Positions 21,862-40,112 of a DNA stretch of 64,000 nucleotides are shown here, piece by piece (position 1 is the first letter of the stretch; every line of letters starts with the position of its first letter). The translations under genes were made by a program, and so were the position numbers. Source of the stretch: an uncultured Bacteriovorax sp. (GTDB taxonomy: Bacteria; Bdellovibrionota; UBA1018); assembly GCA_964432565.1 (NCBI GenBank), contig CAYSOA010000004.1, positions 38,839-102,838 on the forward strand. The letters run 5' to 3'. Below the pieces are notes generated by a model that was given only the letters and a program-made list of their open reading frames with translations, was not told the origin of the DNA and made no database searches.

Positions 21862-22378
21862 TCTGGCCTCCGCTCGGGGCAGCCTCGAAGTCGAGCATCA
21901 GGTCGCCAGGGGAAAGCTGCTGTCCTTCGATGACCCGAATCTTTTTCACCGTGCCGGCACAAGGCGCCTGAATCGCGAACTCCATCTTCATCGCTTCGAC
22001 CAGCACGAGCTTCTGATTCTCTGAAACCTCCGCCCCTTCCGCCACGAGCAGTTTGCGGACCTTGCCCGGAAACTGCGCTGTGAAATCGGCGGCACTGGCT
22101 CCCGATGCAGCCGCCCCGCGCGAGGCATCGAGGCGCGACCAGTCCCCAAAAAGTGGTCCGTGAAAACCCGACGGCTCGAGCCATTGCGCCGAGAACTTTC
22201 CCCTGCCCTGAATGGACACCCCGCGGACCCGTTCAACCGTCCCATCGAGCCGAGTGCGCTCGGCAATCACCCACCCGCCAGGGCGAAGCGATACGGTCCA
22301 CGATTGAGCGTCGCGGGCCTCGGCTGACTGGTCATCGGCGGTGAATTTTTTTCCCGAAACCTTCCACTGGTGTTTCAT
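21851..22378 (-). CDS. biotin carboxyl carrier (BT-BCCP) portion of an acyl-CoA carboxylase alpha subunit
   Basis: It carries a biotinyl-lysine motif (EAMKME) at its C-terminus and has a 4-nt ATGA overlap with the upstream biotin carboxylase ORF. Confidence 0.8.
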   Translation of the reverse strand: MKHQWKVSGKKFTADDQSAEARDAQSWTVSLRPGGWVIAERTRLDGTVERVRGVSIQGRGKFSAQWLEPSGFHGPLFGDWSRLDASRGAAASGASAADFTAQFPGKVRKLLVAEGAEVSENQKLVLVEAMKMEFAIQAPCAGTVKKIRVIEGQQLSPGDLMLDFEAAPSGGQNAG

Positions 22379-23847
22379 GACAGCCTCCAGGGTGACGGTG
22401 CACTCGTCCTCTGGTCCTCGGACGCGCCTGCCAGAGAAAAGGATCGCACCAGTCGTGTCGCCGTCGCCAGGTCGACAGCCGAGATTACGGGCTGAAACTC
22501 CGCGAAGGCCTCCCCGAGGTAGCCGGTGTGCATCCTGCCCTCGCGCACCTGAGCATCGTTGGCGATCGCGAGCAGGTAACGTTGATTCGTGCCCATTCCC
22601 GAAACCACTGTTTCTTCGAGGGCAAAACGCATGCGCTGCACCGCGATTTCACGCGTGGGGGCATGCACGATGATTTTGGCCAGCAACGAGTCGAACTGCG
22701 TGCCGATCGTCTGGCCCTGCTCAATTCCGGCTTCGATGCGAATGCCGGTGCCTGTGGGCCAGCGCAGGAACTCCACTTTTCCGGGTGTCGGCGCAAAGCC
22801 CATGGCCGGGTCTTCGGCGTAGAGGCGCACTTCGATCGCGTGTCCCCGCGGCTCACCCACTTTCGGTAGCTGAAACTCCTCGGGGTTCAGCGCCAACTGC
22901 AACTGCAGGTGGACGAGATCCTGTCCGGTGACCTGCTCCGTCACGGGATGTTCGACTTGAAGGCGCGTATTCATCTCGAGAAAGTAAAAGCCACCCTGAT
23001 CGTCGACCAGAAATTCGAGTGTGCCGGCACTTCGGTATTTCACTTCCGAGACCAGCCTCAGCGAAGCTTCAAAAAGACCCTGGCGTGTCTGCTGCGACAA
23101 GTGCGGCGCGGGAGCTTCCTCCCAAACTTTCTGGTGACGGCGCTGCAGGGAGCACTCACGCTCGTACAGATGGACGCCCCCACCCTTGCCGTCTCCGAAA
23201 ACCTGCACTTCGATGTGTCGCGGATTTTCGATCAGCCGTTCAAGAAACAGCGTGCCATCACCGAACGCGGCAACGGCTTCGGCCGAGGCACTTTCGGCGG
23301 CATCCTTCAATTCGGACGCCTCGTTGACCCGACGCATGCCCTTGCCTCCGCCTCCGGCTGACGCCTTGAGCAGAAGCGGATAACCCACCTTGGCGGCGGC
23401 GGAGGCAAGATCTTCGCCCGCCCTGACCTTCGCCCAAGGCAAGGTCGGTACCTTCGCCTTCTCGGCAAGTTCCTTGGCGGCAATCTTTTCGCCCAGCGCT
23501 CGCATGGTTTCGGCTCGCGGTCCGGCGAACGCGATTCCTGCCGCTTCGCAGGCGTCGGCAAATTCGGGGCGTTCACTCAAAAATCCGTAACCGGGATGAA
23601 TGACCGTCGCGCCGCTTTTTTTCGCGGCGGCGATCACCGACTCGATATCGAGGTAACGGGACACTTCCTGCACCTCGTCGGCATAAGTGAGGTGGCGGGC
23701 CTCTTCATCACCGGGGGCACAAATGGCGACGGTACGAAAGCCCAGCTCGCGGCAGGCCTGAAAAACCCGGCACGCAATCTCCGAGCGATTCGCAACAAGG
23801 ACCTTGAGGGGTTTCGAAGCCATCACGGCACTCATGACGAAATCCAC
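22375..23847 (-). CDS. biotin carboxylase subunit (methylcrotonyl-/acyl-CoA carboxylase alpha, BC domain)
   Basis: It has the ATP-grasp BC motifs GGGGKGMR and ...EMNTRLQVEHPVTE. The exact start is uncertain, with MSAVMA and MASKPLK as candidates. Confidence 0.85.
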   Translation of the reverse strand: MDFVMSAVMASKPLKVLVANRSEIACRVFQACRELGFRTVAICAPGDEEARHLTYADEVQEVSRYLDIESVIAAAKKSGATVIHPGYGFLSERPEFADACEAAGIAFAGPRAETMRALGEKIAAKELAEKAKVPTLPWAKVRAGEDLASAAAKVGYPLLLKASAGGGGKGMRRVNEASELKDAAESASAEAVAAFGDGTLFLERLIENPRHIEVQVFGDGKGGGVHLYERECSLQRRHQKVWEEAPAPHLSQQTRQGLFEASLRLVSEVKYRSAGTLEFLVDDQGGFYFLEMNTRLQVEHPVTEQVTGQDLVHLQLQLALNPEEFQLPKVGEPRGHAIEVRLYAEDPAMGFAPTPGKVEFLRWPTGTGIRIEAGIEQGQTIGTQFDSLLAKIIVHAPTREIAVQRMRFALEETVVSGMGTNQRYLLAIANDAQVREGRMHTGYLGEAFAEFQPVISAVDLATATRLVRSFSLAGASEDQRTSAPSPWRLS

Positions 23848-24635
23848 CCCGGTTTGCGCTTTTCGAGAAACGCCTTGAGGCCTTCCTGCCCTTCCGGAGT
23901 CACGCGCAACTCCGCCAAGGTCTTCGAAACGTACTCGAGGCAGTCTCCCATTTTCTCGCGTCGCTCAGGCCAGGTCAGGTCGAGCACGAGTTGCTTGGCC
24001 ACCGACATCGCCTGCGGCCCGCACTGAAGCATGTTACCCAAAATGCGCTCGCGAGACGCTTGAAGTGCCGCAGTATCCGTGACGACTTCGTGGATGAGAC
24101 CGATCTCGTGGGCGCGCTTCGCGCCAAACCTCTCGGCACTGATGAAGAGCGCCCGAGAATGCGTGGCGCCGATCTTGGCCGTCACGAACGGACCGATGCA
24201 GGCCGGAACAATCCCGAGGCGCACTTCGCTGAGGCTGAACTGCGTATCCTGCGTGGCGACGACCATATCGCAGACACTCGTCAGACCGACTCCGCCGCCG
24301 ATGGCCGCCCCGTGGATAAAACCGATCAGCGGCTTCGGGCACTCATTCATGAGGGCGAACATTCTCGAGAGCGTGCGCGTCTCGACGAGGTTCTGCTCGA
24401 CGTTGAGCTCGACCGAACGCTTCATCCAGTTCAAGTCTCCCCCCGCAGAGAAGACAGGACCTGCACCCTGCAACGTGACGATTTTTACGTCCGCCTTCTG
24501 CACCTCGACCGAGAAAACCTCGGTGAGCTCATCAATCATCGCTTCATTGAAGGCGTTTCGAATCTCGGGACGATTCAGGGTGACATCCAGGACGCCCGGA
24601 TGCCGGATAGAGCGTTCGACCTTGAGGGTTTTCAT
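23832..24635 (-). CDS. enoyl-CoA hydratase/isomerase family (methylglutaconyl-CoA hydratase-like)
   Basis: The crotonase fold motifs are present: FSAGGDL and GAAIGGG. The start was taken at MKTLKV. Confidence 0.8.
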   Translation of the reverse strand: MKTLKVERSIRHPGVLDVTLNRPEIRNAFNEAMIDELTEVFSVEVQKADVKIVTLQGAGPVFSAGGDLNWMKRSVELNVEQNLVETRTLSRMFALMNECPKPLIGFIHGAAIGGGVGLTSVCDMVVATQDTQFSLSEVRLGIVPACIGPFVTAKIGATHSRALFISAERFGAKRAHEIGLIHEVVTDTAALQASRERILGNMLQCGPQAMSVAKQLVLDLTWPERREKMGDCLEYVSKTLAELRVTPEGQEGLKAFLEKRKPGWISS

Positions 24636-24658
24636 GCCCCCGAAACTAACCCAAGCGC

Positions 24659-25444
24659 TTAAAGGCGGCAATCCTGCTTCAATCGATCGGCGAGTCCACG
24701 CGCAGCCGACACTTCGAGACGGGTGATTTCGAGCTGGGTCAGGGCATCGGCAGCAAGGCCCTCAACGTAGCGGCGATCATCGTGTCCAAAGGTGTACCAG
24801 CGACTTTGAATTTCGCCGGTCTCCGAGTCGCGTAGCGTCTCCAAAAAGCGCTCAAAGTCTCTTCCAGCGTGACGACGAACGTCGGTAAACTTCGATGCCA
24901 CCAGAACCGGAAGCTGCGCGGCATCGTCCATCAGATCTTGAAACTCCGCTTCGCTCTTCACTTCCCCGATGAGGTCTTCCAGGCTCAGCTTCAGGTGATT
25001 CACGCCCAGCTCGCGCCGATCCAAAGTTCGATAAAGGTAGCGAACGCCGTGATAGGCCGTCGGCACTGCCACGGCTGAGGTCAATAGTCCGGCCGTCGTC
25101 ACCTTGCCGAGTGGTAGCGTGTAGGCCGCCACTCCCGGAATCAACGACGCCGCCACCACGCCGACGGCCGCACAGGCACTCGAGGTGTAGGCCACGAAGC
25201 GGGCCTTGCCGAGAAGCTTCTTGAAGTCTTGAACCGCGTGCTCCTGGATCTGAGCAGAGGCTTCACGCCGTTCGGCGAGCTTCGTCAGTTTGTGAATCAC
25301 GTCATGTTGCTCGATCTGTGAGCAGTACTCGGCCAGTCTCGGTGAAAGTGCCTGAGGCGACGCCTCGGCAGCAGCGAAGGCCGAAGTCAGAGAAAGGCCG
25401 AACGAGGCCGGAACCACCAAAAAGGACGCGAGCAGCTTCTTCAT
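24659..25444 (-). CDS. hypothetical secreted/membrane protein
   Basis: A signal peptide (MKKLLASFLVVPASFGLSLTSAFAAAEA) and an internal hydrophobic hairpin are present. No motif was recognised. Confidence 0.45.
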   Translation of the reverse strand: MKKLLASFLVVPASFGLSLTSAFAAAEASPQALSPRLAEYCSQIEQHDVIHKLTKLAERREASAQIQEHAVQDFKKLLGKARFVAYTSSACAAVGVVAASLIPGVAAYTLPLGKVTTAGLLTSAVAVPTAYHGVRYLYRTLDRRELGVNHLKLSLEDLIGEVKSEAEFQDLMDDAAQLPVLVASKFTDVRRHAGRDFERFLETLRDSETGEIQSRWYTFGHDDRRYVEGLAADALTQLEITRLEVSAARGLADRLKQDCRL

Positions 25445-25505
25445 GCTGCACTGCACTACCTTAATTCCGAGTGAATTGCTCTTGTTTTTTAAGTCATTGA
25501 AATCA

Positions 25506-27347
25506 CTAAGGAGAACAAACTCCGCCGCAGGTCGTCGGTTGACACCCCGTTCCACTTCCGTAGCGATTCGAACAGGTCGGAAAACACCGGAAGGAGCTCT
25601 CGTCCACGCGCTGCACTCGAGGACCCCACTGCCAGACCCCCGAAATCACGTAGGGGTCGGCAACCAGGGTTTTTCCGGCCTCACACGACACCTGACAAGT
25701 GGCCCCTCCCCGCGTCGTGCATCGGACTTCTTCCACTTCAGGCGACGGAGCCGCACAAACCGCACCGCAAACCGTTGGAGTGCACCCGGTTCCGCCACCC
25801 CAGCGATTTGAACAACCAGGACCACAGGAGATCGTCGTCTCGGTTACCTTTGAAATGGCAGGAGACCACGCCAGAGTGCCGCTGATGTAGTAGGGATTGG
25901 TCACCAACTGCATTCCTGCAGAGCATGACGCCTGACAGGACTGGCTGCCGCCCGGCGTGCGACATGAAATGGCTTCTGTCGGTACACGCACTCCCGCAGA
26001 AGAGCATCCTGACGACTGCAGGACATAGCTGTTGCCGACGAGGTAGATCTTCCGCCCGACGCCACTGTTGTTGTGCTCGGTGCCAGTCAGCACTTCCTCG
26101 ATGTGGCCGTCCGCGAATTTGACCGTAAATGAATAGACGCGGCGGATCGCTCCGTGCGTGGCGCCCAGATAATCCTGGCTTCGCTTGAAGTGAACCCGCT
26201 CGACGTCAGCGGGCAGGGCCTTCGCGTCTCGAACCATGACCCAAACATCGTCGTCCGGAAAGGTGCTCGAATCCGAGCCGCTGTCGGTGGTTTGACTCAG
26301 GTTCAGCTCAGGGATGGGCATCTCATTCGAATCCAGATTCAATTGGCCGGGCTGGGTCAGGTAAGGCGCCATCCGCGACTCGACGTAGTCGAAGTTCGGA
26401 TGCAGCTCGGTGAGCTTCGCGCAGGCGCAGTATTTTCCGATCTCCTGGTATTCACGAACAAACGTGACTGCGGCATCGCTTCCGGTTGCCGTGACAAAAA
26501 ACGGCCCTTGAGCGGAACCAGAGGAGATCGCCCCGATCCATGCTCCCCCACTATTCGAATAGCAGTTGGTGTCGTTCGCACGATTCTTTGAGCACAGAAA
26601 CCGACGGGCAATGGCAGTAGAAGTCGACTGCTCGGCAAGGCCGTCCAGAAAAGACGTCTGGGTTGACGACGACTCGGTCAGGAGCTGCGCCACATTGAAG
26701 ACCAGCGTCTCGTTTTGTGCCTGCCCTCGCGGCAGATCCGGAGTCGAGTGGATTGTGCCGATCGGATCCGCATTGAAGGCCGAAAGTCCGCCCTTGAATA
26801 CTCGTTGGGCATCGAGCGTGTAGAGCTTGCGATCTCCCACCGACCATTCGACCGCCGGCCAGGGCGAGAGGTAGATGTAATGATCCTGCAGACCCCTGTA
26901 CGTGTAAGCCACCCAGTTCGCACCGGCAGCACCGCAGGCGCCCCATTCGGGAGCCGGCAACTGCACCGACACGACCTGATATCCCGGCTGTCCGGGTGTA
27001 CAGACCTTACAGGCCTGAAGGATCTTGTCGTCTCCCGCCTGGAAGCAGCGAGACTGCAGGCCGGAATCCGGCGAGCCCGACGGCTCGGGCGAAAAGGTCG
27101 CAGAAGCCGCCAGTCCCGAGCACGGCGAAGTGGTCATCGCCGCAGTGATCGCGGCCTTCTTCTTTGCGTAATTGACGAGCACCTGCTCGCCTTCACTGGA
27201 AGCGATCTTGCGAAGCGACAAGTTGACCGACTGCGAAAGCAGCGCTCCGGTGACGGCAAGGCCCACGCCGGCCGAAACCACCAACCCCACCGTCACGTTA
27301 CCCTGAACACTTTTCCCGGAAACCCCGATACTGCGTCGAATCCCCAT
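25506..27347 (-). CDS. Cys-rich membrane-anchored protein with tandem 8-Cys C-terminal repeats (613 aa)
   Basis: The start was taken at MGIRRS. There is an N-terminal TM anchor and two tandem ~65-aa repeats (CQxSCxAG...NPY.ISG...W.P...V.E...C.P.CSNR.G.GTGC.PT.CG.VC) plus a partial third. It is divergent from the pilin-like genes. Confidence 0.6.
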   Translation of the reverse strand: MGIRRSIGVSGKSVQGNVTVGLVVSAGVGLAVTGALLSQSVNLSLRKIASSEGEQVLVNYAKKKAAITAAMTTSPCSGLAASATFSPEPSGSPDSGLQSRCFQAGDDKILQACKVCTPGQPGYQVVSVQLPAPEWGACGAAGANWVAYTYRGLQDHYIYLSPWPAVEWSVGDRKLYTLDAQRVFKGGLSAFNADPIGTIHSTPDLPRGQAQNETLVFNVAQLLTESSSTQTSFLDGLAEQSTSTAIARRFLCSKNRANDTNCYSNSGGAWIGAISSGSAQGPFFVTATGSDAAVTFVREYQEIGKYCACAKLTELHPNFDYVESRMAPYLTQPGQLNLDSNEMPIPELNLSQTTDSGSDSSTFPDDDVWVMVRDAKALPADVERVHFKRSQDYLGATHGAIRRVYSFTVKFADGHIEEVLTGTEHNNSGVGRKIYLVGNSYVLQSSGCSSAGVRVPTEAISCRTPGGSQSCQASCSAGMQLVTNPYYISGTLAWSPAISKVTETTISCGPGCSNRWGGGTGCTPTVCGAVCAAPSPEVEEVRCTTRGGATCQVSCEAGKTLVADPYVISGVWQWGPRVQRVDESSFRCFPTCSNRYGSGTGCQPTTCGGVCSP

Positions 27348-27418
27348 CCCAAAAGTGTAGCACAACAAGTTCCGAAAGCGGCGTTGACCCCTGCTGCGAC
27401 GTAGGCAACACTTTACGC

Positions 27419-27937
27419 GTGTCCCTTTCATCGAAGAACCTTCACCAAAACCACACTGGAATCACGCTGTTGGGCGGGATGGTCACCCTCGGCACGATTG
27501 CCTTATCGGTGTCTTTTCTGACCCAGTCCGCGCTGCACTCGCGGCGCACGAGTCAGGCCATCGAAAATCGGATTGATGCCTCGCTCGTGGCGAGCAACAT
27601 CCTGAATGCGATTGCAACCACTTCGACCGAAGGCATTCGAATCATGGCCGCCAGCGCTCCTGCCGACAGCTGGATCGACAAAACGAACCCAACACTAGCC
27701 TGGCTTGGCACGTGGGAATCGGCAGGAGGCGTACGGAATATTCGAGTGCGGTTTTCGGCGTTTCAGGTGCTTTCCAGCCCCACCCCCATGCTGAGCCCTG
27801 TTCCTTATCCCACGGCCATGCCCTCTCCCGCCTCGACACCCGAACCCTCGCACCAGGTCGATCTGGAGCTCGAGTTCTCGCGCGACTCCGGAAAAAGCTG
27901 GCAAACGTTTTCGGCCTCGAAGTGGGTGGCAAGGTGA
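27419..27937 (+). CDS. minor pilin/pseudopilin-like protein lacking Glu5 (GspK/PilX-like N-terminus)
   Basis: A GTG start leads into ...NHTG-ITLLGGMVTLGTIALSVSFL, a hydrophobic prepilin-like helix without E at +5. Its stop overlaps the next start (GTGA). Confidence 0.4.
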   Translation: MSLSSKNLHQNHTGITLLGGMVTLGTIALSVSFLTQSALHSRRTSQAIENRIDASLVASNILNAIATTSTEGIRIMAASAPADSWIDKTNPTLAWLGTWESAGGVRNIRVRFSAFQVLSSPTPMLSPVPYPTAMPSPASTPEPSHQVDLELEFSRDSGKSWQTFSASKWVAR

Positions 27938-28575
27938 ACACGCGGCAGGGTTACAGCACGGTCGAGCTGATTCTGGCGTCAGCGGTCACGCTTCTCGCGA
28001 CGATGATTCTTGGGCTTTCGATCACCTATTTCATCGGACAGGCCTCGCGACAGAAAGTTCAGATCGAACAAACGGCGCAGGCTCAGGCGTTTTTGCAGCT
28101 TTTGCGCAAAGACCTGGCATCGGCTTCCGATATCGCCGTCGATCCTCCGAGCTCGCAAGCTCCCACCGGGTTCAAGCTCACCCAGAAGATCCTGAGTGCG
28201 GGCGCTGTCACGACACGTGACACGACCTACACGATCGGTGGAGCCACCACCTGCACGACCTCCACCAAGAAATCTTTTGCCTGCATCCGCGTGCAGCGAA
28301 AATCCGGAGAGAATGCTCCGGTCGAATTACCGAACGTCGTGGCGTTCCGATGGTGCTCCGAAAAGCTGCGAGCCGGAACACATTCGGTGCCCGCCGATTG
28401 CGCGGCACTCACCGCGCTCAACCAGCCCCTTCCAGCCACCCCCGCCCGCTTCATCGGCGAGATCACCGTTTTGGCCCACCCCGAGCGACCCGCCGGAGAG
28501 CAGACCAAGGTCGTCCCTTTCATCTATGAAGCTGGCAATCTCGGCGCGAAGATCCAGGTCCTGAAGACCGAATGA
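27934..28575 (+). CDS. type IV pilin-like / pseudopilin protein (class III signal peptide)
   Basis: After a GTG start the N-terminus reads MNTRQG-YSTVELILASAVTLLATMI, the canonical G|(F/Y)xxxE prepilin motif. Conserved Cys residues follow in the C-terminal half. Confidence 0.65.
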   Translation: MNTRQGYSTVELILASAVTLLATMILGLSITYFIGQASRQKVQIEQTAQAQAFLQLLRKDLASASDIAVDPPSSQAPTGFKLTQKILSAGAVTTRDTTYTIGGATTCTTSTKKSFACIRVQRKSGENAPVELPNVVAFRWCSEKLRAGTHSVPADCAALTALNQPLPATPARFIGEITVLAHPERPAGEQTKVVPFIYEAGNLGAKIQVLKTE

Positions 28576-28642
28576 CACCCGAGCTTCCGAAGGGCTGACC
28601 GAGGCTTGTAGCACGCGAACTTTGCGCGCCGAATCTATCCAC

Positions 28643-29950
28643 TCAGTAGCGGTTTCTTCGTTCGGTCTCGCTCTTCAACAAGAGCGGATTGGAAATGATG
28701 CGGTCCCGCGCCGTTTCGGCCTCAAGACGCGAGGAATAGGTTCCCCAATAAAGACGAGCCGTTTTCCCGGAACGCTCCCTTTTCGTGAGATAAAGCCGAA
28801 ATTGCGACGTCCAGAAGCCCGGTTTCTGAGACTTCACGATCACATCCTCCACCGTGTAGATCGACCGACTGACCGTTGCTGGCTCAAGCGAATCGTCTCC
28901 GGCGTCGACATGAACCTCCTCGGGAAGACCCTCGAGAAGCATCTCCTTCATCAGCCTCAGCAGTTTTTCGCCGCCGGGTGAGTCGACCTCCCCTAGACCG
29001 AACACTTCATCGTAATAGCGATTATTCTTCAGACCAATCGTCAACTCTGGCGCCCGATAGATCTTCTCATCCTGAATCTCAAACGCGCCCTGCGACAAGC
29101 TGATGCGCTCCCACTGATAGAGCTTGCGCTTTTTGAGCTCAAGATCTCCTGCACGACCACCAGCCTTAGAGACATAGTCCTCGCGCTCAGTCTCGTTGCA
29201 GGCCAGAAGGCGCAGCTCTTCTCGACCCTCTTTCTCCTCTACGCAGTACCCTGAACCTCCCTTTTGAATCCACCCCCAGCAGGATTTAGATTCGAATTCG
29301 CGGCACTTCGGAAACTCGAGACGGCCGGAGTCGTTGGCCTGGGAGTATTCGATCCAGAAGTTGTTCTTTCCGGGCAGATACGGATCCCACAATCCGCTCG
29401 AGATCTCCTGATTGACTCGAACCTCGAGGTTCGGCACCGGCATCTCCTTCAGAAGCTGCTGGGTTCCCTCGCGAAGACGCGTCGGATCGTTGCCTCCCGA
29501 ACAGGCCGTATTGTCGACGCGCAGATCGATCTCGTACTTGCTCGCCGCCGGAAGAATATCCGTTCTCAGCCACTCGACGGTCTGGTTGGCGCTCGCCCAG
29601 TGTCCGACATAGCCGACGACGACCTTCTTCTGCCGAAAGCTCTCGTCCAGAAGGTCGGACAGTTCCGGAAGCTTTCCGGACTCGATGCGAAGCGTTTTTG
29701 CGCAGGACTGATGAGTGAACCAGATGCTGCACCCCAGCTTGAAGAAACCCTGCTGGCTCTTCGGAAACGAGCCGATCTCGCACACACAAAGGTCATTCTC
29801 GCGCACTTCAGCCTTGCGCTTCCAAAAGGCCGGGTCGCGACTGCCGTCATCAACGAATGGCTGTGAGGACACGGTTCCGGAAGGCACCGTCGAACAGCCC
29901 GCAAGGATGATGGTCGCTCCCCAAAGGCTCCACGTTGAAAAGTTGTGCAT
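28643..29950 (-). CDS. hypothetical lipoprotein with possible C-terminal SPOR-like domain
   Basis: The start was taken at MHNFSTW and the lipobox reads ILAGC. The C-terminus (YTVEDVIVKSQ...TARLYWGTYSSRLEAETARDRI) resembles a SPOR peptidoglycan-binding domain. Confidence 0.5.
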   Translation of the reverse strand: MHNFSTWSLWGATIILAGCSTVPSGTVSSQPFVDDGSRDPAFWKRKAEVRENDLCVCEIGSFPKSQQGFFKLGCSIWFTHQSCAKTLRIESGKLPELSDLLDESFRQKKVVVGYVGHWASANQTVEWLRTDILPAASKYEIDLRVDNTACSGGNDPTRLREGTQQLLKEMPVPNLEVRVNQEISSGLWDPYLPGKNNFWIEYSQANDSGRLEFPKCREFESKSCWGWIQKGGSGYCVEEKEGREELRLLACNETEREDYVSKAGGRAGDLELKKRKLYQWERISLSQGAFEIQDEKIYRAPELTIGLKNNRYYDEVFGLGEVDSPGGEKLLRLMKEMLLEGLPEEVHVDAGDDSLEPATVSRSIYTVEDVIVKSQKPGFWTSQFRLYLTKRERSGKTARLYWGTYSSRLEAETARDRIISNPLLLKSETERRNRY

Positions 29951-30066
29951 GGCAGCTCTCCTCCAAGTCAATAGACTCCAGCAAACGGATCGGCACGAGA
30001 CAAAGGTGGCACAAATCTTTTCGTCGAAGTCGACTCGTCTCGACAGACCCACCCCAATGGCCCGCA

Positions 30067-30828
30067 CTAGGGCGCTTTTTCTGGTGCCGGGCGAATCAAG
30101 TCGCGAAAATAGCCGTTAAAAAGATCTCCCTTTTCGTCGCCGTACAGGTCGACCGGATTGTACTTTCCGGGAGCAGGGCCGAACCGCTCGGCCTCAGAAA
30201 CAAAGAAAACGAGAGGATTGGTGGAGCTCGCCTGCTGCGTCGTCAGCCACTCGATCCATTCCTCGGCGCTCACGACCCGGCTGAGCTCTGAGTCGATGAC
30301 CCACCAGCCCCCTTCCTTTGCTGCGACCAGGGCGGCCACATGATGCCCCCAACCGCCAAGCATCGGACCGACTCCCCAGATCTTGAGTATCCGAGACCGG
30401 GCAAGTCCTCGCCGAAGCGCCTCGAGATGAACGGCCGTCGCCCGACCGAAACAAAAGCCGAAGTTTCCCTTGGGGTCATATCATTTGAGATGCCTCATCC
30501 CGGCGACTGGATGGCAGTTCAGGTACTCGAAAAGGTCTTGTGCCTCACGAAGCGACATCCCTCCCTCGCGTCGGGCAGGGGGCGGTAACTGAGCCCGCAG
30601 TGCTCTCGATAGGTCGTTGTTCCACTGCTCGACAGCCAAAAGCCCCTCGTCCCTGCGAAGCAGGCTCGAGCGCACGCTAAAAAAATCCTTCCCACTGGTG
30701 CGACCGACGACAGAGTCCAGCCATTCCGCGTTCATCCTCTGTTCCAGCCTCTCGAACAGGTCACTGCAGTCACTGGCATGAACGGCGGATCCAGCGACGA
30801 TGGAAACGACCATCAGCGCAAGCCTCAT
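30067..30828 (-). pseudogene. secreted transglutaminase-like (TGc) cysteine peptidase interrupted by an in-frame TGA
   Basis: ORFs 30481..30828 and 30067..30363 are in the same frame and separated only by a TGA (the complement of 30481-30483). The joined protein has a signal peptide (MRLALMVVSIVAGSAVHA) and a TGc core: GFCFG..LRRGLARSRI ... GHHVA ... GGWWVIDS (Cys-His-Asp). Confidence 0.55.
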
Positions 30829-31015
30829 CCCCAGTCCGTTCTTCACCGTTCGAAAGTGTTTGATCAGCAATCGTTTCGTCACAGCGTTTTCCGTCAAATC
30901 CTCGTCGGCCTTCAGGGGGGTTGGCATGAGTTTTTCTCGCTACTCCACACCACGCCTTTCAGGTCAGTGAAGACACAACTGATGCGTCCCCGACCGAGGG
31001 CCTATTCTCGAGAGC

Positions 31016-31483
31016 ATGAACCCTGCATCCGACGAATGGCGCATCTTTCTTCGTCACGCCCATCGCGAGCTTTTCGATCGCTCGCAGGACAACGGCCTCT
31101 CCGAGAAGGGACACCGTCAGGGCCGCAAGATCCAGGAATGGCTGAAAGAGCATTCACCCAAGCCCGATCGCGTGTTCTCGAGCCCGAAGCTGCGGTGCCT
31201 CGAGACCGCGGAGTATGTTGCGAAACTCTACGGACTCGAAGTCGAGATCCTACACGAGCTGGACGAGCAGCGCCCCGAGGAGAGCGACCAGGGCTTCAAG
31301 AATCGCGTGGCGAACTTCCTCGGCTCGAAACAGTGCCCGCCGCGCTCGGTCTTTTGCACGCATGGAGACGTCCTGCCGGAGCTGGCTCGACTTCTGGGCC
31401 TGCCGGGAGTCGACATTCACAAGGGCGATCTGTTCATCGAACGCGACGGCAGGATCGTCAGCACCAACCCGGTTCGGGCGTAA
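31016..31483 (+). CDS. histidine phosphatase superfamily protein (SixA-like phosphohistidine phosphatase)
   Basis: The N-terminus reads FLRHAHRE (the RHG/RHA motif), a conserved His lies near the C-terminus (FCTHGDV), and the length is 155 aa. Confidence 0.6.
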   Translation: MNPASDEWRIFLRHAHRELFDRSQDNGLSEKGHRQGRKIQEWLKEHSPKPDRVFSSPKLRCLETAEYVAKLYGLEVEILHELDEQRPEESDQGFKNRVANFLGSKQCPPRSVFCTHGDVLPELARLLGLPGVDIHKGDLFIERDGRIVSTNPVRA

Positions 31484-31767
31484 ATGGTCGGGCCCACCTT
31501 TTGGTTTCGGAACTGCGTCAAAACACGCAGGAGTGACTCAGAAATTCACCGTTCGGGTACGGACAGTCCTCGCTCCGCTTTGCGGAGCTGCGGAACTACC
31601 GAACGGATGAATTTCCGGATCACCCCTGCGCGCCTGCACGCCGGGATCCGGAAGAGTCGCGCCCGCGAGTTCCCTGCGCAGCAGGGTTGTCTGAAGCGGG
31701 CGTGCTCTTTCGGTCCGGGCCTGGAAGGTGGAAGGTGGGTCCGACCCTTTTGTGGTAAGTTCGAGCC

Positions 31768-33387
31768 ATGCCTACCGAAAGCCCCGTCCTCAAGTCGCAA
31801 GTGCAGACCTCTTCTGACGAGTTTCGCGCCAATGCCGAGCACCATCGGCAGCTCGCCGCCGAGCTCGAGGCCCGAACCGAGGAGGCCCGTGGGGGGGGCG
31901 GCAGAGAAGCCCGAGAACGACATCAGAGTCGTGGAAAACTTCTGGTTCGCGATCGTATTGGCGCACTGGTCGATCCGGGCACCTCGTTCCACGAACTCTC
32001 GGCGCGGGCGGCGAATGGGATGTATGACGGAGCCGCTCCCTCCGCCGGCGTTGTCACGGGAAACGGCGTCGTACATGGACGCGAGGTGGCCATCGTGGCC
32101 AACGACGCCACCGTCAAGGGCGGCACCTATTTTCCGATGACCGTGAAGAAGCACCTCCGCCTTCAGGAGATCGCTCGCGAGAACAGGCTTCCCTGCGTCT
32201 ATCTCGTTGACTCGGGCGGGGCCTACCTGCCGCTGCAGTCTGAAGTTTTTCCAGACCGAGACCACTTCGGACGCATCTTCTACAACCAGGCCTCGATGTC
32301 GGCCGAAGGCATCCCGCAGGTCGCCGTCGTCATGGGTTCCTGCACTGCAGGAGGCGCCTATGTCCCGGCAATGTCGGATGAAACCATCATTGTCAAAAAC
32401 CAGGGCACGATTTTTCTGGGCGGCCCTCCGCTCGTCAAGGCTGCAACCGGAGAAGTGGTCACGGCCGAAGAACTTGGCGGTGGAGACGTCCACTCGCGCA
32501 CGTCGGGAGTTACCGACCATCTGGCCGAGAATGATGAGCACGCTCTCGAGATCGCTCGTTCGGTACTGGCCCACCTGAATCGCCCGGCGCCGACCTCCTG
32601 CGACCGCCAGGCGGTCGAAGAGCCGCTCTACGATCCCGCAGAAATCGCAGGAATCCTTCCGCAGGACCTGCGCCAGCCCTTCGACGTCCGTGAAGTCATC
32701 GCTCGACTCGTCGACGGCTCGCGTTTTCATGAGTTCAAGGCGCTCTATGGCACGACGCTCGTCTGCGGCTTTGCCAATCTCTGGGGATACCCCGTGGGCA
32801 TCATCGCCAATAACGGCATCTTGTTCAGCGAGTCGGCCCTCAAGGGCGCGCATTTCGTCGAGCTGTGCTGCAAGCGCAAGATTCCGCTGATCTTTCTGCA
32901 GAACATCACAGGCTTCATGGTCGGCAGAAAGTACGAAACCGGTGGCATCGCCAAGGACGGGGCCAAGCTCGTCACCGCCGTTTCGAACGCCAGGGTGCCC
33001 AAGTTCACCGTCCTGATGGGCGGCAGCTATGGAGCCGGAAACTACGGCATGTGCGGACGCGCCTTTCAGCCGCGCTTTTTGTGGAGCTGGCCTAACTCCC
33101 GAATTTCGGTCATGGGCGGAGAGCAGGCTGCCAACGTCCTGTCGCAGGTCAAGATCGACCAACTTCAGGCGAAGGGAATGAAGCTCTCGCCGGAAGAAAT
33201 TGCGGCCATTCAGGATCCGGTTCGCGAAGCCTACGAACGCGAGGGAAATCCCTACTTCGCCACCGCTCGTCTGTGGGATGATGGAATCGTGATGCCGTGG
33301 AAGACGCGAGAGGCACTCGCGCGGGCTCTGTCGACGGTCTACAATGCCCCCATTCCCGAAACGGACTTCGGGGTCTTTCGAATGTAA
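31768..33387 (+). CDS. methylcrotonyl-CoA carboxylase beta subunit (carboxyltransferase)
   Basis: Carboxyltransferase N- and C-domains are recognisable across the 539 aa (e.g. ...[13 protein letters not shown]...). The long antisense ORF 31546..33450 was rejected. Confidence 0.85.
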
Positions 33388-33397
33388 GGACTTTGCC

Positions 33398-34624
33398 ATG
33401 AAGGATTGCTCGCCACGCCGAAACAGCCTGTTGAAGACGGGACTTGTCACTGCGGCGACGATCCTTCTGGCCGGATGTTCGCACTCTCCAGAAAGACTTC
33501 CGTCGTCTGAACCGTCCTCACGGGACGAGGCACTTTCGCGGTCCGAGGTACGCGCGCTCTATCCCGAGCTCACTCCCGCTCAGTTTCGCTCGAAACTCGA
33601 CGGAGCTGACACGCCCTACCGTTTTCTTCGTTCGTTTGCTCGCGTCTACTACAGAATTTTTGGGCGGTTACGAGAACGCCTCCCCACGAGCTTCTCGGCG
33701 GCTCTCGAAACGACCGGATGGTGCGCGGGAGATGCCCATCCCGAAAACTTCGGCACCCTCGTGGATGATCGTGGCCGCGCCAGCTTCACGCTGATCGATC
33801 TCGACGACACGGGCCCCTGCACGGTAGTTTCCGATCTTCTTCGCTTTCTGATCGCCGCCCGCCTCGCTGACCCCGACATGAACTCGAGCGAAGGAATGGA
33901 CGATCTGCTTGATGCCTACTTCGATGGCACTGAGGGCCGAGTCAAGCTGTCGATACCGGTGCGGGAGCTGCTCGATTCAGCAGCAGGGGATACAGACTTT
34001 AAAAAAAGCCTGGAGGTCGAGGGAGATGACGGAGAACCGCTGACCCGGAAGGTGGACGGCCAAGAGCTGGCCCGCCTCCGGCGGACGGCCAGAAAAGCAT
34101 TCGGAAACGTGACCGTCCGAAAGGCCACTCGCTATGCCAAGACCCGCGGAGGATCGGCGGGAATCCCCCGTTACCGAGTGGAACTCGGCGACCGATCGGT
34201 GCTCGAGTTTCGAACCCTGGTGGCTCCCGCCGTCTTTTTTGAGTCCAAGGACGCAGGCCCTCCCGCTTCCCACCCAGCCAGCCGGGACCCCCTCTTCCGC
34301 ATGAACGAAACCCTGAAAGCCACCGCACCGGCAGGACGATCCCGCTGGTTCAGCGTTCAAAAGCTGGGAGACGATTGGGTTTTGATTTCTCCCCGCTATC
34401 GGGGAATCGACACGATCGAACTGAAACGTGATTCGGAGGGCTCCCACAAGAACAGAAGAAAAATCCTGCGGGACGAGGCAGCCGTACTGGGCGACCTGCA
34501 TGCCCGAACCACCCCTGCCTTTCAGCGCACCGTAGAGGTGCTGCGGTCAATCCGAGCCCGCGACTGGGAACGCGCCGAGCTCCTGCTCCTGCGAGCCCTC
34601 GGGGGCAGCCCAGCCGAAAACTGA
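33398..34624 (+). CDS. DUF2252-like lipoprotein
   Basis: The lipobox reads LLAGC and a GDAHPENFG motif characteristic of the DUF2252 family is present. The start was taken at MKDCSP. Confidence 0.55.
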   Translation: MKDCSPRRNSLLKTGLVTAATILLAGCSHSPERLPSSEPSSRDEALSRSEVRALYPELTPAQFRSKLDGADTPYRFLRSFARVYYRIFGRLRERLPTSFSAALETTGWCAGDAHPENFGTLVDDRGRASFTLIDLDDTGPCTVVSDLLRFLIAARLADPDMNSSEGMDDLLDAYFDGTEGRVKLSIPVRELLDSAAGDTDFKKSLEVEGDDGEPLTRKVDGQELARLRRTARKAFGNVTVRKATRYAKTRGGSAGIPRYRVELGDRSVLEFRTLVAPAVFFESKDAGPPASHPASRDPLFRMNETLKATAPAGRSRWFSVQKLGDDWVLISPRYRGIDTIELKRDSEGSHKNRRKILRDEAAVLGDLHARTTPAFQRTVEVLRSIRARDWERAELLLLRALGGSPAEN

Positions 34625-36027: not shown

Positions 36028-37128
36028 TCACGATGCCTTCTGGGACTCTCCGGGTCTACGCCCCTGCCGGTGTATCCAGTCGAGGATCTTGGCAGAAATT
36101 CGCTCGAGCGCGACCACCTGATCGGCCGCACCGAGGTCAATGGCTGCCTTGGGCATTCCAAACACCACGGACGACCGTTCGTCCTGCACGAGAGTTGCAG
36201 CTCCTGCCTTCTTCATGTTCAGAAGTCCCTGGGCTCCGTCTCGACCCATTCCGGTCAATACGACTCCCAGTGCATCCCCGCCCATGACCTTTGCTACCGA
36301 CTCAAAGAGGTAATCGGCGGCAGGACGCACTCCGTGCATCATGGGAGCCTGATGTAGCCGAATCCTCAGTCCTCCGCGCCGCTGAACCTCCATGTGAAAG
36401 TCCCCGGGCGCCAAGAGAAGCTGTCCGGGAACAACCAGATCGCCGTCTCGAGCCTCGCGAACCTGAAAGGCGCAGATTTCCTGCAAATGCTGGGAATACT
36501 GGGTCGTGAACAATGCCGGCATGTGCTGCACCACCACGATCGGGGGAACTTCGGCGGGAAGCCCCTTCAGGGCGACCTTGAGCGCTTCGGTGCCCCCGGT
36601 GGAGCTCGCAATGGCAATCATTCTCCGAGCGAGAATGGCCTCGGAAACCGGCTCTGTTGCAGCGTTAGCCAGCGATGCTGAGCGCAGCTGCATGGACTTC
36701 TGAAACCGGGGGCGCGCCCTGGCCTGGCCCGCCTCAAGAACGGCCGCGCGAATATCCGCCGAGGCCTCCTGCAACGACCGACCACCCTGCACCTTCGGTT
36801 TTTCAATCGCCCGAATGGCCCCCGCCTCGAGTGCCCGGTGCTCGACCTCCGAGCCCTTGACGGCCCGGGCGCTCACCACGACCGTCGGCGTAGGAAAGTG
36901 CTTCATGACTTTCTCGAGAAACGCGATGCCGTCGAGCCGGGGCATGTCGATGTCGAGGGTCATCACATCGGGTTGAAGCTCGACCAGTTTTTCTCGCGCC
37001 TGAAAGGCATCTGCCGCCATGCCGATGACCTCCACCTCTGGCACTCCCGCCAGCATGCGGCTGATCAGCGCCTGCATCACGAGCGAATCATCCACCACCA
37101 GCACTCGAAGCTTTCGGGAGATCGTCAT
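36028..37128 (-). CDS. cheB: chemotaxis response regulator protein-glutamate methylesterase
   Basis: An N-terminal REC domain (VLVVDDS) is followed by a CheB methylesterase domain (GASTGG; HMPxxFT). Confidence 0.85.
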   Translation of the reverse strand: MTISRKLRVLVVDDSLVMQALISRMLAGVPEVEVIGMAADAFQAREKLVELQPDVMTLDIDMPRLDGIAFLEKVMKHFPTPTVVVSARAVKGSEVEHRALEAGAIRAIEKPKVQGGRSLQEASADIRAAVLEAGQARARPRFQKSMQLRSASLANAATEPVSEAILARRMIAIASSTGGTEALKVALKGLPAEVPPIVVVQHMPALFTTQYSQHLQEICAFQVREARDGDLVVPGQLLLAPGDFHMEVQRRGGLRIRLHQAPMMHGVRPAADYLFESVAKVMGGDALGVVLTGMGRDGAQGLLNMKKAGAATLVQDERSSVVFGMPKAAIDLGAADQVVALERISAKILDWIHRQGRRPGESQKAS

Positions 37129-38066
37129 TTCGAGACCCCCCTCTTGCGATAGGCGGCGTGCGAAATCGTCTCGAACTCGGGATGACGCATCGATCCTGAC
37201 TCGGAATGTCCGAGAAAAAGATAGCCCCCCGGTCTCAGGACCCGCCCGAGGTTGGCAACAACCTGGTGCGCCGTTTCGCGATCAAAATAGATCAGGACGT
37301 TTCGGCAGAAGACCACGTCGAAAAGCCTCTGCATCGGATACGGCTGCGAGGTTAGGTTGATCTCTGCAAAGGTCATCATCTTCGCCAATGCGGGATGAAC
37401 CACAAACTTTTTTCCGACAGTCGGATCCAACCGCTCGACGAAGTACTTCTTGCGAAGCTCGGGAGGCACCCCCTCCATTTCCTGCTGAATGTAGGCGCCC
37501 GATGCCGCCTTCTTCAAGGAGGGGCGGTCGATGTCGCTGGCCAGCAGCTTCAGTCGAACCGGACGGCTGGGAGAAAGACGGGTCAGCTCTTCGTGCAGGA
37601 CCATGGCGAGCGTGTAAGGCTCCTGCCCGGTGCTCGCAGCAGCGCACCACACTCGAAGCTCGGCGGCATCGACACCGTGCATGCGCGACTTCTGCTCGAG
37701 AATCGTTGGCAAAATTCCCTGAAGCTGCCTGAAATGTGCCGACTCCCGAAAAAACCGGGTCGTGTTGGTCGTCATTTTCGAAACGAACTCGAGCACCTCG
37801 GCCGAATCCGTTCCCCGCGTCCTCAGAAAGTTGAAATACTCTCCAAGCGACGACAGTTGTCGCGCCCGCAGGGTTTGCGCCACGCGACTGACCAGAAGCG
37901 AGCGATTCTTGGGCGTGTCGTCGAGATAAATTCCGGTCAGCTCCTTGAGCAGAACCGAGAGCCGGTGGAAGCCGACACTATCCCGTGCAAAAGCGTCGAG
38001 CTCCCGATGCTGGTCGACGATCGTCGGGCTCTGGTGAGGAGGAGCGAATTTCGGCTGGGCACTCAT
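37125..38066 (-). CDS. cheR: chemotaxis protein methyltransferase
   Basis: It has CheR N-terminal and SAM-methyltransferase domains (VWCAAASTGQEPY...) and a 4-nt overlap with cheB. Confidence 0.85.
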   Translation of the reverse strand: MSAQPKFAPPHQSPTIVDQHRELDAFARDSVGFHRLSVLLKELTGIYLDDTPKNRSLLVSRVAQTLRARQLSSLGEYFNFLRTRGTDSAEVLEFVSKMTTNTTRFFRESAHFRQLQGILPTILEQKSRMHGVDAAELRVWCAAASTGQEPYTLAMVLHEELTRLSPSRPVRLKLLASDIDRPSLKKAASGAYIQQEMEGVPPELRKKYFVERLDPTVGKKFVVHPALAKMMTFAEINLTSQPYPMQRLFDVVFCRNVLIYFDRETAHQVVANLGRVLRPGGYLFLGHSESGSMRHPEFETISHAAYRKRGVSK

Positions 38067-39934: not shown

Positions 39935-40112
39935 ACCAACTTCAGATCGGTGAATTCTGCGACGGGCTTGATGAAATCCTTTTGACGCTCGGACCTTAAG
40001 AGCGCGCAATCGCAGAAAATTCTCCACAAATTCTTGGCAACTCAGGGCGGCAACGAAACTCAAGTCCAGGGAAGACACTTCCGAAAGGCACTCAGACAGA
40101 AGGAAACTGCAA

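What the first reader, a model, noticed from the sequence alone, without database searches (positions are those of the whole stretch)
25506..27347. Novel Cys-rich tandem-repeat protein divergent from a pseudopilin pair
This 613-aa N-terminally anchored protein ends in two near-identical ~65-aa modules, each with 8 Cys in a fixed spacing: C-x3-C ... SC-x-P-x-CSNR-x-G-x-GTGC-x-PT-x-CG-x-VC. A third partial module lies upstream (RCFQAG...ACKVCTPGQPGY). I do not recognise this disulfide-rich repeat as a known domain.

Its start is 72 bp from, and divergent to, two coupled type-IV-pilin-like genes. That suggests a secreted or surface adhesin, or a tip-associated factor, linked to a pseudopilus.
Basis: seen in the sequence. 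Interest (0 to 1): 0.7.

Follow-up and report, generated by a model that had tools for sequence, protein, structure and literature searches.

The report
Pilus-tip protein with swappable Cys-rich head
In an uncultured predatory-type bacterium (Bdellovibrionota), this gene most likely encodes the large subunit of a three-protein pilus-tip set whose outer "head" is exchanged between close relatives, the cysteine-rich double repeat being one of at least five alternative heads.

Summary
The ORF and its C-terminal tandem are real. There are two ~73-81-aa modules with 8 invariant Cys each, 52% identical (not "near-identical"). The proposed third upstream module is not supported.

The repeat is not the conserved core. 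The protein is a mosaic: a pilin-like N-domain, MID, X, then a tail. Relatives carry a different 4-Cys tail, a Gly-rich tail, no tail, or a BNR propeller directly after the N-domain. Similarity breaks sharply at the domain junctions.

The two divergent small genes are pilin-like (orthologues hit Pfam N_methyl). They stay adjacent even in a 40%-identical orthologue with unrelated flanks.

Best reading: an orphan minor-pilin tip trio, analogous to GspI-J-K or KilL-M-N, with a Glu5-less modular cap pilin displaying an exchangeable head.

Verdict: new variant of a known kind; interest about 0.55.

The parts
25506..27347 (-). Large modular protein (613 aa plus stop), the proposed cap or tip minor pilin. 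Public gene calls use the upstream ATG at 27431 (641 aa).
   Evidence: ORF. Orthologue starts. dN/dS 0.07-0.16 in all domains against L006. The 641-aa version is in NCBI without a name.
27237..27347 (-). Class-III-like signal, aa 1-37. A 16-aa hydrophilic leader ends in invariant Gly16, followed by 21 mostly hydrophobic residues (NVTVGLVVSAGVGLAVTGALL). Position +5 is Gly, not Glu.
   Evidence: Alignment A7; hydrophobicity; definition of the motif from PMC8179133.
26913..27347 (-). N-domain, aa 1-145: signal, long helix to about aa 69, then a small Cys-containing beta-sheet. This is the constant part that co-occurs with the two small pilin-like genes.
26433..26912 (-). MID domain, aa 146-305. 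Also found in about 20 large secreted proteins of other lineages. No Pfam family.
   Evidence: pLDDT above 90. Precisely deleted in L004.
25983..26432 (-). X domain, aa 306-455, ending in the invariant GCSSAG junction. Also occurs as tandem copies in short secreted Bdellovibrionota proteins, and on a canonical pilin (P0039). No Pfam family.
   Evidence: pLDDT about 85-95.
25728..25970 (-). Cys-rich module 1, aa 460-540: 8 Cys and six predicted beta-strands.
25509..25727 (-). Cys-rich module 2, aa 541-613: 8 Cys and six predicted beta-strands. This is the C-terminus of the protein.
27348..27418 (.). The 71-bp divergent intergenic region between the large gene and the pilin-like pair. No sigma-70 consensus match was found.
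27419..27937 (+). Small pilin-like gene A (172 aa). Its N-terminus is ...NHTG|ITLLGG, with Gly at +5 in place of Glu.
   Evidence: A4. The L010 orthologue (MSFRSG|FTLMG) hits Pfam N_methyl at 16.9 bits, E 0.005, below the cut-off. Weak GspI hit, E 0.13.
27934..28575 (+). Pilin-like gene B (213 aa). It has a canonical prepilin leader, MNTRQG|YSTVEL, with Gly6 and Glu11 invariant. Its GTG start overlaps gene A's stop codon.
   Evidence: The L010 orthologue passes the Pfam N_methyl cut-off (21.8 against 21.2 bits) and the L003 orthologue scores 17.5 bits. JGI names the L001 orthologue 'pseudopilin PulG'.
24659..25444 (-). Downstream 261-aa secreted protein. It is possibly associated: present after the large gene in the window, L001, L004, L006/L014 and absent in L003, L010 and L015. 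Function unknown.
   Evidence: No family hit.

Best explanation
The gene encodes the largest subunit of an orphan three-gene minor-pilin set in a Bdellovibrionota bacterium.

Shown:
- The protein starts with a class-III-like signal: a leader ending in an invariant Gly, then 21 hydrophobic residues, with no Glu at +5.
- It is a chain of separable modules: N-domain, MID, X, and a C-terminal head.
- Two small genes with prepilin-type N-termini are always divergently adjacent to it.
- The head, and in one relative everything after the N-domain, is replaced between close relatives exactly at the domain junctions.

Inferred:
- After cleavage by a prepilin peptidase encoded elsewhere, the three alpha1N helices bundle into a heterotrimeric priming or tip complex, as in GspI-J-K or KilL-M-N.
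- The Glu5-less large subunit sits at the cap of a type IV filament and presents its C-terminal head outward.
- The Cys-rich tandem is one head variant. It is a pair of disulfide-stapled six-strand beta-sandwich modules of the resistin / PCSK9-V-domain / APCbeta type.
- The head probably binds a ligand on a target surface, plausibly a prey envelope. Head swapping would then change specificity.
For: 1. Pilin-like signal. Gly16 is invariant across seven orthologues down to 31% identity. It is followed by exactly 21 hydrophobic residues, and a helix is predicted to about aa 69. This fits the published class III definition (PMC8179133).
2. Neighbours are pilins. PilB has invariant Gly and Glu5. 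Its orthologues reach Pfam N_methyl at 21.8 bits (above the cut-off) and 17.5 bits, and a pilA orthologue reaches 16.9 bits. JGI labels one orthologue PulG.
3. The trio is a unit. It is kept in eight loci, including L010 (40% identity, 53% GC, unrelated flanks).
4. Independent parallel. L017 has three overlapping pilin-like genes (one with Glu5, one with Gly5, one large), and the large one carries domain X plus a Cys-rich tail.
6. Exchangeable head.
   - L020 and P0004 are 95-100% identical over aa ~120-452, then unrelated after GCSS(A/K)G.
   - L003 and L015 are 88% identical in DNA up to about codon 156, then unrelated until the next gene.
   - The observed payloads are the Cys tandem, a 4-Cys tail, a Gly-rich tail, no tail, and a BNR propeller.
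7. Fold of the Cys tandem.
   - Foldseek: APCbeta E 1.5e-4 and PCSK9 E 7e-4.
   - Six strands are predicted per module.
   - Module size and strand count match the published CHRD description (PMC9113161).
8. The tail is under purifying selection, dN/dS about 0.08.
9. Precedent. Predatory Myxococcus uses KilLMN minor-pilin tips with variable, disulfide-rich distal domains. Bdellovibrio tad genes are dispersed, and PilD processes several pilin types (PMC12075869; bioRxiv 10.64898/2026.07.08.737194).
Against: - The target's own N-terminus matches no pilin HMM (N_methyl, T2SSK, TadE, Tad) even at E <= 10.
- hhalign of its N-domain against the two small proteins is not significant.
- It lacks Glu5.
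- Tail pLDDT is only 50-84, and residues 1-50 are below 50.
- The ORFs scanned across most of the 64-kb window include no pilus machinery, so the partner filament is unknown.
- One N-domain relative (P0021, L012) has no pilin genes on its short contig.
- All the synteny evidence comes from one phylum-level lineage.
- PCSK9 and APCbeta prisms use three repeats. Here there are only two.
Confidence: 0.6

Rival explanations
1. The trio is a GspI-J-K-type pseudopilus tip of a type II secretion system. It would be a periplasmic piston tip, not a surface pilus. The large protein would be a GspK analogue whose extra domains contact the secretin or cargo.
For: - The three-gene pattern of small, medium and large (Glu5-less) proteins mirrors GspI/J/K.
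- There is a weak NCBIfam GspI hit for pilA, E 0.13.
- JGI labels a pilB orthologue 'PulG'.
Against: - No T2SSK, GspI or GspJ HMM is matched at threshold.
- There is no gspH/G or gspD/E/F nearby.
- Strain-to-strain swapping of bulky distal heads (beta-propeller, Gly-rich, Cys tandem) fits an exposed, ligand-binding tip better than a conserved periplasmic piston.
- PilA, the smallest subunit, also lacks Glu5, unlike GspI.
Confidence: 0.12
2. The large protein is an uncleaved, N-terminally anchored envelope protein or a secreted adhesin that is not part of a filament. Its adjacency to the two pilin-like genes would reflect co-regulation, or a dedicated pseudopilus that exports it.
For: - No pilin HMM is matched and Glu5 is absent.
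- hhalign against the neighbours is not significant.
- The MID and X domains occur in many ordinary signal-peptide proteins that have no pilin genes nearby.
- The N-domain relative P0021 has no adjacent pilins.
Against: - An invariant Gly followed by exactly 21 hydrophobic residues is conserved down to 31% identity.
- The N-domain is the one part always kept next to the pilin pair, even when the whole payload is replaced.
- Pseudopilin fold hits.
- The L017 parallel, where domain X sits on a canonical Glu5 pilin.
Confidence: 0.15
3. The trio is a Tad-type Tip (TadE/TadF/TadG, that is KilM/KilL/KilN) that caps a Tad/Kil pilus, as proposed for Bd0114-Bd0115-Bd0148 in Bdellovibrio bacteriovorus. 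This is the same mechanism as the best explanation but assigns a specific machine.
For: - In Myxococcus, three-gene clusters lie away from the main locus, with a large subunit carrying a variable, disulfide-rich distal domain (PMC12075869).
- Bdellovibrio tad genes are dispersed, with a lone tadG.
- The N-terminus RGNVAVGLAV... resembles the TadG-type N-terminus (from memory, not tested beyond Pfam).
Against: - Pfam TadE (PF07811) and Tad (PF13400) are not matched by any of the three proteins.
- The pilB and pilA orthologues instead match the T4P/T2SS N_methyl motif.
- I could not retrieve the Bd0114/115/148 sequences for a direct comparison.
Confidence: 0.2
4. It is a polymorphic secreted toxin or effector, with a conserved delivery region and a variable C-terminal 'warhead'.
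For: - The C-terminus is replaced by recombination between near-identical cores. This pattern is typical of polymorphic toxins.
- A small gene of unknown function lies downstream in several loci.
Against: - The alternative tails look like binding or structural modules (beta-sandwich tandem, Gly_rich-like, BNR propeller). None resembles an enzyme.
- One orthologue has no tail at all (P0003).
- The downstream gene does not change with the tail and is absent in three loci.
- PADLOC and toxin libraries were not searched.
Confidence: 0.04

Closest known systems
KilL-KilM-KilN 'Tip' complexes of the Myxococcus xanthus Kil/Tad pilus, and TadE/F/G elsewhere (Herrou et al. 2025, PMC12075869)
   Same: - A three-gene minor-pilin cluster that can lie away from the machinery genes.
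- One large subunit whose variable C-terminal domain forms the distal end.
- Many predicted disulfides.
- Occurs in predatory bacteria.
- Several alternative tips give different specificities.
   Different: - No sequence similarity, and no TadE or Tad Pfam match.
- The small subunits here carry the T4P/T2SS-type N-methylation motif.
- Here the diversity arises by swapping heads on one locus between strains, not by paralogous clusters within one genome.
- The heterotrimer was not modelled here.
GspI-GspJ-GspK pseudopilus tip of type II secretion (PDB 3CI0)
   Same: - A small, medium and large trio.
- The large subunit lacks Glu5 and carries an extra domain.
   Different: - No HMM-level membership.
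- GspK's extra domain is an alpha-domain inserted in the pilin fold. Here three or four domains are appended C-terminally.
- There is no gsp operon context.
- The smallest subunit here also lacks Glu5.
Modular type IV pilins: Streptococcus sanguinis PilB/PilC, ETEC CofB, V. cholerae TcpB (Raynaud et al. 2021, PMC8179133)
   Same: - A pilin module with functional modules grafted C-terminally for display by the filament.
- Likely tip location.
- The modules are often not recognisable by domain databases.
   Different: - Those pilins have a canonical class III signal with Glu5 and an IPR012902 match. This protein has neither.
- The payload domains here (MID, X, Cys tandem) are undescribed.
Resistin / PCSK9 C-terminal Cys-His-rich (V) domain / apicomplexan APCbeta modules
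   Same: - Tandem modules of about 75 aa, six strands each, disulfide-stapled beta-sandwiches.
   Different: - 8 Cys per module with a different spacing, against 6 in the CHRD.
- Two repeats, not three, so a closed three-fold prism cannot form from one chain.
- No Pfam or PDB sequence match.
- The known members cited here are eukaryotic.
- The prediction for this region has only moderate confidence.
PilY1 / PilC tip adhesins of type IVa pili
   Same: - A large tip-associated protein encoded with minor pilins.
- It has variable regions.
- One relative here (L015) carries a beta-propeller-type payload.
   Different: - PilY1 is a non-pilin with a Sec signal and a conserved C-terminal propeller (PF05567).
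- This protein has a pilin-like N-terminus and matched no Pfam family in a full Pfam-A scan. The L015 propeller is of the BNR/Sortilin type.

Membership tests
Type IV pilin superfamily (class III signal peptide proteins) | Hydrophilic leader ending in Gly or Ala, followed by about 21 mostly hydrophobic residues | tested here: met
   The 16-aa leader ends in invariant Gly16, followed by 21 hydrophobic residues. This is conserved in seven orthologues down to 31% identity. Definition taken from PMC8179133.
Type IV pilin superfamily (class III signal peptide proteins) | Glu at position +5 of the mature protein | tested here: not met
   Position +5 is Gly, Leu or Ala in all orthologues. The absence of Glu5 is known for cap subunits such as GspK, so this lowers membership but not the tip model.
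Type IV pilin superfamily (class III signal peptide proteins) | Match to the N-terminal methylation motif HMM (Pfam PF07963 / IPR012902) | tested here: not met
   No hit for the target or its orthologues even at E <= 10. The neighbouring pilB and pilA orthologues do hit it: 21.8 bits (above the cut-off), 17.5 and 16.9 bits.
Type IV pilin superfamily (class III signal peptide proteins) | Pilin fold: an alpha1 helix of about 50 residues packed on a beta-sheet | tested here: inconclusive
Type IV pilin superfamily (class III signal peptide proteins) | Cleavage by a prepilin peptidase and incorporation into a filament | not testable with these tools
   Needs a PilD co-expression assay and pilus purification.
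T2SS GspK | Match to T2SSK HMMs (PF03934 / PF21687) and an alpha-domain inserted in the pilin fold | tested here: not met
   No Pfam or NCBIfam hit. The extra domains are appended C-terminally.
TadG / KilN large Tad minor pilin | Tad N-terminal HMM (PF13400), with TadE-like partners (PF07811) | tested here: not met
   No such hits for any of the three proteins or their orthologues.
TadG / KilN large Tad minor pilin | Encoded with two smaller minor pilins, with a variable distal C-terminal domain rich in disulfides | tested here: met
   Conserved trio. Head swapping. The protein has 26 Cys.
TadG / KilN large Tad minor pilin | Confident heterotrimer with an alpha1N bundle; structural similarity to KilN or Bd0148 | not tested
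   No multimer prediction is available, the AFDB library was unavailable, and the Bd0148 sequence could not be retrieved.
Resistin / PCSK9 CHRD / APCbeta beta-sandwich modules | Six-strand disulfide-linked beta-sandwich module of about 75 aa, in tandem | tested here: inconclusive
Resistin / PCSK9 CHRD / APCbeta beta-sandwich modules | Family Cys signature or HMM (6 Cys paired 1-6, 2-5, 3-4 in the CHRD; Pfam Resistin) | tested here: not met
   There are 8 Cys with a different spacing (against PMC9113161). No Pfam or PDB sequence hit at E <= 10.

The most novel reading that the evidence does not exclude
The Cys tandem is a bacterial member of the rare double-layer beta-prism module class, so far described by the papers read here only for PCSK9, resistin and apicomplexan perforin APCbeta. 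It would be displayed at the tip of a predatory bacterium's type IV filament as a membrane- or envelope-binding head. The locus would then be a natural cassette system in which strains swap heads (Cys tandem, 4-Cys domain, Gly-rich domain, BNR propeller) on a constant pilin stalk to retarget prey recognition.
Probability: 0.25. Interest if true: 0.75.

Novelty: new variant of a known kind. Interest (0 to 1): 0.55.

Why it matters
How predatory bacteria recognise and attach to prey is largely unknown. Minor-pilin tips with variable heads were only recently proposed for Myxococcus, and predicted structurally for Bdellovibrio.

This locus offers a sequence-novel, compact example in uncultured Bdellovibrionota. 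Natural head swaps between near-identical stalks can be read directly from metagenomes. That gives defined chimeras to test for specificity.

It also defines four undescribed domains (N, MID, X and the Cys tandem) that could be added to domain databases. The MID and X domains would annotate dozens of unannotated surface proteins in other lineages.

If the predicted fold of the tandem holds, it would extend a fold class cited here only from eukaryotes to bacteria.

Tried and rejected
- **First AF2 run.** The 7-sequence alignment gave mean pLDDT 33, which is unusable, so no fold search was run on it.
- **AFDB50 fold library.** It was unavailable, so I could not compare with predicted TadG, KilN or Bd0148 models.
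- **BFVD viral fold search.** Nothing significant, so I dropped the phage tail-fibre idea.
- **PDB sequence profile searches.** Nothing meaningful for the whole protein, N-domain, Cys module, pilA or pilB.
- **hhalign.** The N-domain against pilA and pilB, and pilA against pilB, are all non-significant.
- **Third upstream module.** Rejected by the shuffle test.
- **Tat signal.** The RR in MGIRRS is not conserved in orthologues.
- **Sec signal peptide.** Unlikely: the hydrophobic stretch is 21 residues with no AxA-type site (sequence inspection).
- **P0005 Gly-rich tail against Pfam Gly_rich_2.** Only E 0.45, so it is described as 'Gly-rich' and not assigned.
- **Promoter and terminator scan.** The junction shows nothing above shuffle expectation.
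- **Weak representative-search hits.** P0037 (SpaA repeats) and P0043 (PPR) matched only short stretches and were treated as spurious.
- **Bd0114/115/148 sequences.** Extracting them from the paper's supplementary PDB file was judged infeasible within the look-up caps.
- **Not searched.** PADLOC and PHROGs libraries.
Full report
**1. Observation**

The minus-strand ORF 25506..27431 is present. Orthologues begin at the equivalent of 27347. Public gene calls use the upstream ATG and give 641 aa.

The C-terminus holds two tandem modules, aa 460-540 and 541-613. Each has 8 Cys with identical spacing except for one residue. They are 52% identical (38/73), and 62% at the DNA level, with an alignment score 28 SD above shuffles. 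The duplication is therefore real but old, not 'near-identical'.

The proposed third partial module upstream scores below the shuffle mean (z about -1). It lies in a separately conserved N-terminal domain.

In six module copies from three orthologues all 8 Cys are invariant, as are PY.ISG, W.P and CS(N/G)R.G.GTGC. dN/dS for the tandem is about 0.08-0.16. Synonymous sites are near saturation, so these values are approximate.

The gap to the divergent gene pair is 71 bp. The second small gene starts at a GTG that overlaps the first gene's stop codon.

**2. How rare is the repeat?**

- Pfam and NCBIfam find nothing for the protein or for single modules, even at E <= 10.
- A module profile matches no PDB sequence at E <= 10.
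- A search of 5.8 billion protein clusters with the 155-aa tandem returned one protein.
- A full-HMMER profile search of 1.84 billion representatives found the tandem only in the window protein and its close orthologues.
- A pattern scan of 241 million metagenome records added one locus, and viral contigs added none.
- In total the tandem is seen in five closely related loci: the window, P0001, P0002/L006, P0007/L004 and L020.

**3. Architecture**

The representative search and a domain-wise phmmer map show four separable parts:

- N, aa 1-145.
- MID, aa 146-305.
- X, aa 306-455.
- The tail, aa 456-613.

MID occurs in about 20 large secreted proteins of other lineages. One of these also has a Pfam Gly_rich_2 domain. 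X occurs as tandem copies in short secreted Bdellovibrionota proteins and in other proteins. None of N, MID or X has a Pfam model.

The tail is variable. Five payload states were seen:

- The Cys tandem.
- A different tail of about 105 aa with 4 Cys (P0004, P0009, P0012).
- A Gly-rich tail of about 280 aa (P0005).
- No tail (P0003).
- In L015, the N-domain followed directly by six Asp-box/BNR repeats with Sortilin-Vps10 hits.

Natural rearrangements fall on the domain junctions:

- L020 and P0004 are 95-100% identical over aa ~120-452, and unrelated after the GCSS(A/K)G junction.
- L003 and L015 share 88% DNA identity through the carboxyltransferase gene, both small genes and the first ~156 codons. 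They share nothing further until the next gene.
- L004 lacks exactly codons 146-305.

**4. The neighbours and the trio**

PilB-like orthologues have a canonical prepilin leader (M..R.G|FSTvEL), with the Gly and the +5 Glu invariant. One orthologue passes Pfam's N_methyl cut-off (21.8 against 21.2 bits) and another scores 17.5 bits. JGI calls one 'pseudopilin PulG'.

PilA-like orthologues read SG|(I/F/M)TL(L/M)GG, with Gly in place of Glu5. One reaches 16.9 bits on N_methyl.

The trio is kept in the window, L001/L002, L003, L004, L006/L014, L015 and L020, all within the leucine-catabolism (MCCase) gene neighbourhood. It is also kept in L010. There the large protein is only 40% identical, the GC content is 53%, and the flanks are LolA, YajQ, MiaB and QueG.

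An independent parallel is L017 (41% GC). It has three overlapping pilin-like genes: one with Glu5, one with Gly5, and a 627-aa pilin (KTG|LGTSE) carrying domain X and a Cys-rich tail.

The family occurs only in Bdellovibrionia/Bdellovibrionota MAGs among the GTDB representatives. The ORFs scanned across most of the 64-kb window include no pilus or secretion machinery.

**5. Is the large protein itself pilin-like?**

Its N-terminus has a 16-aa hydrophilic leader ending in a Gly that is invariant down to 31% identity. Exactly 21 mostly hydrophobic residues follow, then a polar helical stretch. This fits the published description of a class III signal peptide, apart from the +5 Glu that the same paper notes in PilB (PMC8179133).

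It matches no pilin HMM. Profile-profile comparison with the two small proteins is not significant.

- **Disulfide-rich beta-sandwich modules.** See section 6.

The tool does not report which residues aligned. Mapping the first group to the N-domain is therefore my inference, and cystatin-like folds score nearly as well.

**6. Predicted fold of the Cys tandem**

- Foldseek's only hits at E <= 1e-3 are APCbeta (1.5e-4) and PCSK9 (7e-4, 8e-4), with low TM-scores.
- The PCSK9 CHRD is built from tandem six-strand modules of about 74-77 aa (M3 is 89 aa), with three disulfides each, and is structurally homologous to resistin (PMC9113161). Two such modules total 151 aa.
- The model predicts six strands in each of the two all-beta modules here. 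This is why I assign these hits to aa 456-613.

Differences from that class: 8 Cys with another spacing, two repeats instead of three, no sequence-level match, and only moderate model confidence.

**7. Interpretation**

The simplest account of all this is an orphan minor-pilin tip module. Two small pilins and one large, Glu5-less, modular pilin-like subunit would assemble through their N-terminal helices, as GspI-J-K do.

The same arrangement was proposed for the KilL-M-N Tips of the Myxococcus Kil/Tad pilus. There the large subunit's variable, disulfide-rich domain forms the distal end and different tips serve different prey (PMC12075869). That paper predicts Tip-like complexes in Bdellovibrio (Bd0114-115-148). 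A 2026 preprint shows that Bdellovibrio tad genes are dispersed, include a lone tadG, and that PilD processes both T4aP and Tad pilins.

Which filament this trio serves is open. The N_methyl hits of the small subunits point to T4aP/T2SS-type pilins rather than TadE-type.

Steps that are shown:
- The domain mosaic.
- Head swapping.
- The conserved trio.
- Pilin motifs of the neighbours.

Steps that are inferred:
- Cleavage at Gly16.
- Heterotrimer formation.
- Tip location.
- Ligand binding by the head.

**8. Novelty and score**

The concept is known: modular or tip minor pilins with variable heads. All four domains are undescribed at the sequence level. The head-swap evidence between near-identical stalks is unusually direct. 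A resistin/PCSK9/APCbeta-like module in a bacterium would be new if confirmed.

I rate it a new variant of a known kind, with interest 0.55.

Noticed in passing
L004 9363-10738 and L005 (NCBI MAG GCA_945860415.1; Logan ERR5863100): In this orthologue the MID domain (codons 146-305) is precisely deleted. The gene is also broken into two ORFs of 190 and 245 aa within domain X. It may be a decaying copy or a shortened variant. The same structure is seen in two records.
   Followed up: partly
window 24659-25444 (-): A 261-aa protein with a Sec-type signal peptide and a long central hydrophobic Ala/Gly/Val-rich segment lies directly downstream of the large gene. It is conserved in the window, L001, L004, L006/L014 and absent in L003, L010 and L015. 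It has no family match.
   Followed up: partly
window 28643-30067 (-): A 474-aa ORF with a lipobox-like LAGC motif near its N-terminus has no Pfam or NCBIfam match. It occupies the position where L001 and L004 carry a PLDc_2 protein and other genes.
   Followed up: no
window ~22375-33400; L001, L003, L004, L015: The pilin trio sits inside the leucine-catabolism (methylcrotonyl-CoA carboxylase) gene set, between the carboxyltransferase gene and the enoyl-CoA hydratase / biotin carboxylase genes. The amount of extra DNA at this spot varies between relatives: nothing more than the trio in L003 and L015; four extra genes (His_Phos_1, two unknown, PLDc_2) in L001 and L004 (three of them visible on the 95-kb JGI contig, the same genome as L006/L014); other ORFs in the window. 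It looks like an insertion hot spot.
   Followed up: partly
P0014, P0016, P0017, P0024, P0026, P0029 (L019 for P0016): The MID domain occurs in large secreted proteins of other lineages. Some of these (P0016, P0017, P0024, P0026, P0029) also carry repeated G(Y/F)AWS.N(I/V)GWI.F motifs; P0014 does not. P0016 also has a Pfam Gly_rich_2 domain, echoing the Gly-rich tail of P0005. Several relatives (P0019, P0027, P0031, P0036, P0040) share a Cys-rich linker TCNNN.(T/V)C(E/D).(G/N)E.C.C.DC.
   Followed up: no
L007 6-659, L009 7007-7813 (continues in another frame), P0006, P0008: Short secreted Bdellovibrionota proteins (332 and 355 aa) consist of two tandem copies of domain X and are not next to pilin genes. 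The L009 copy appears frameshifted.
   Followed up: partly
L017 1343-5317: A 41%-GC organism has three overlapping co-directional pilin-like genes (358, 350 and 627 aa). The largest combines a canonical prepilin N-terminus, domain X and a different Cys-rich tail containing a W.W.C.G.NGG motif.
   Followed up: partly
window 27348-27431: Public gene calls (NCBI, Logan) start the large gene at ATG 27431 (641 aa). That start would overlap the start of the divergent pilA-like gene by 13 bp. The extension is not conserved in orthologues, although its upstream sequence has a better Shine-Dalgarno-like GAAGG than ATG 27347 does.
   Followed up: partly
window 36028-40216 (-): A chemotaxis gene set lies about 9 kb from the trio: CheB, CheR and a CheA-CheW fusion. 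The same genes flank the trio more closely in L003.
   Followed up: no
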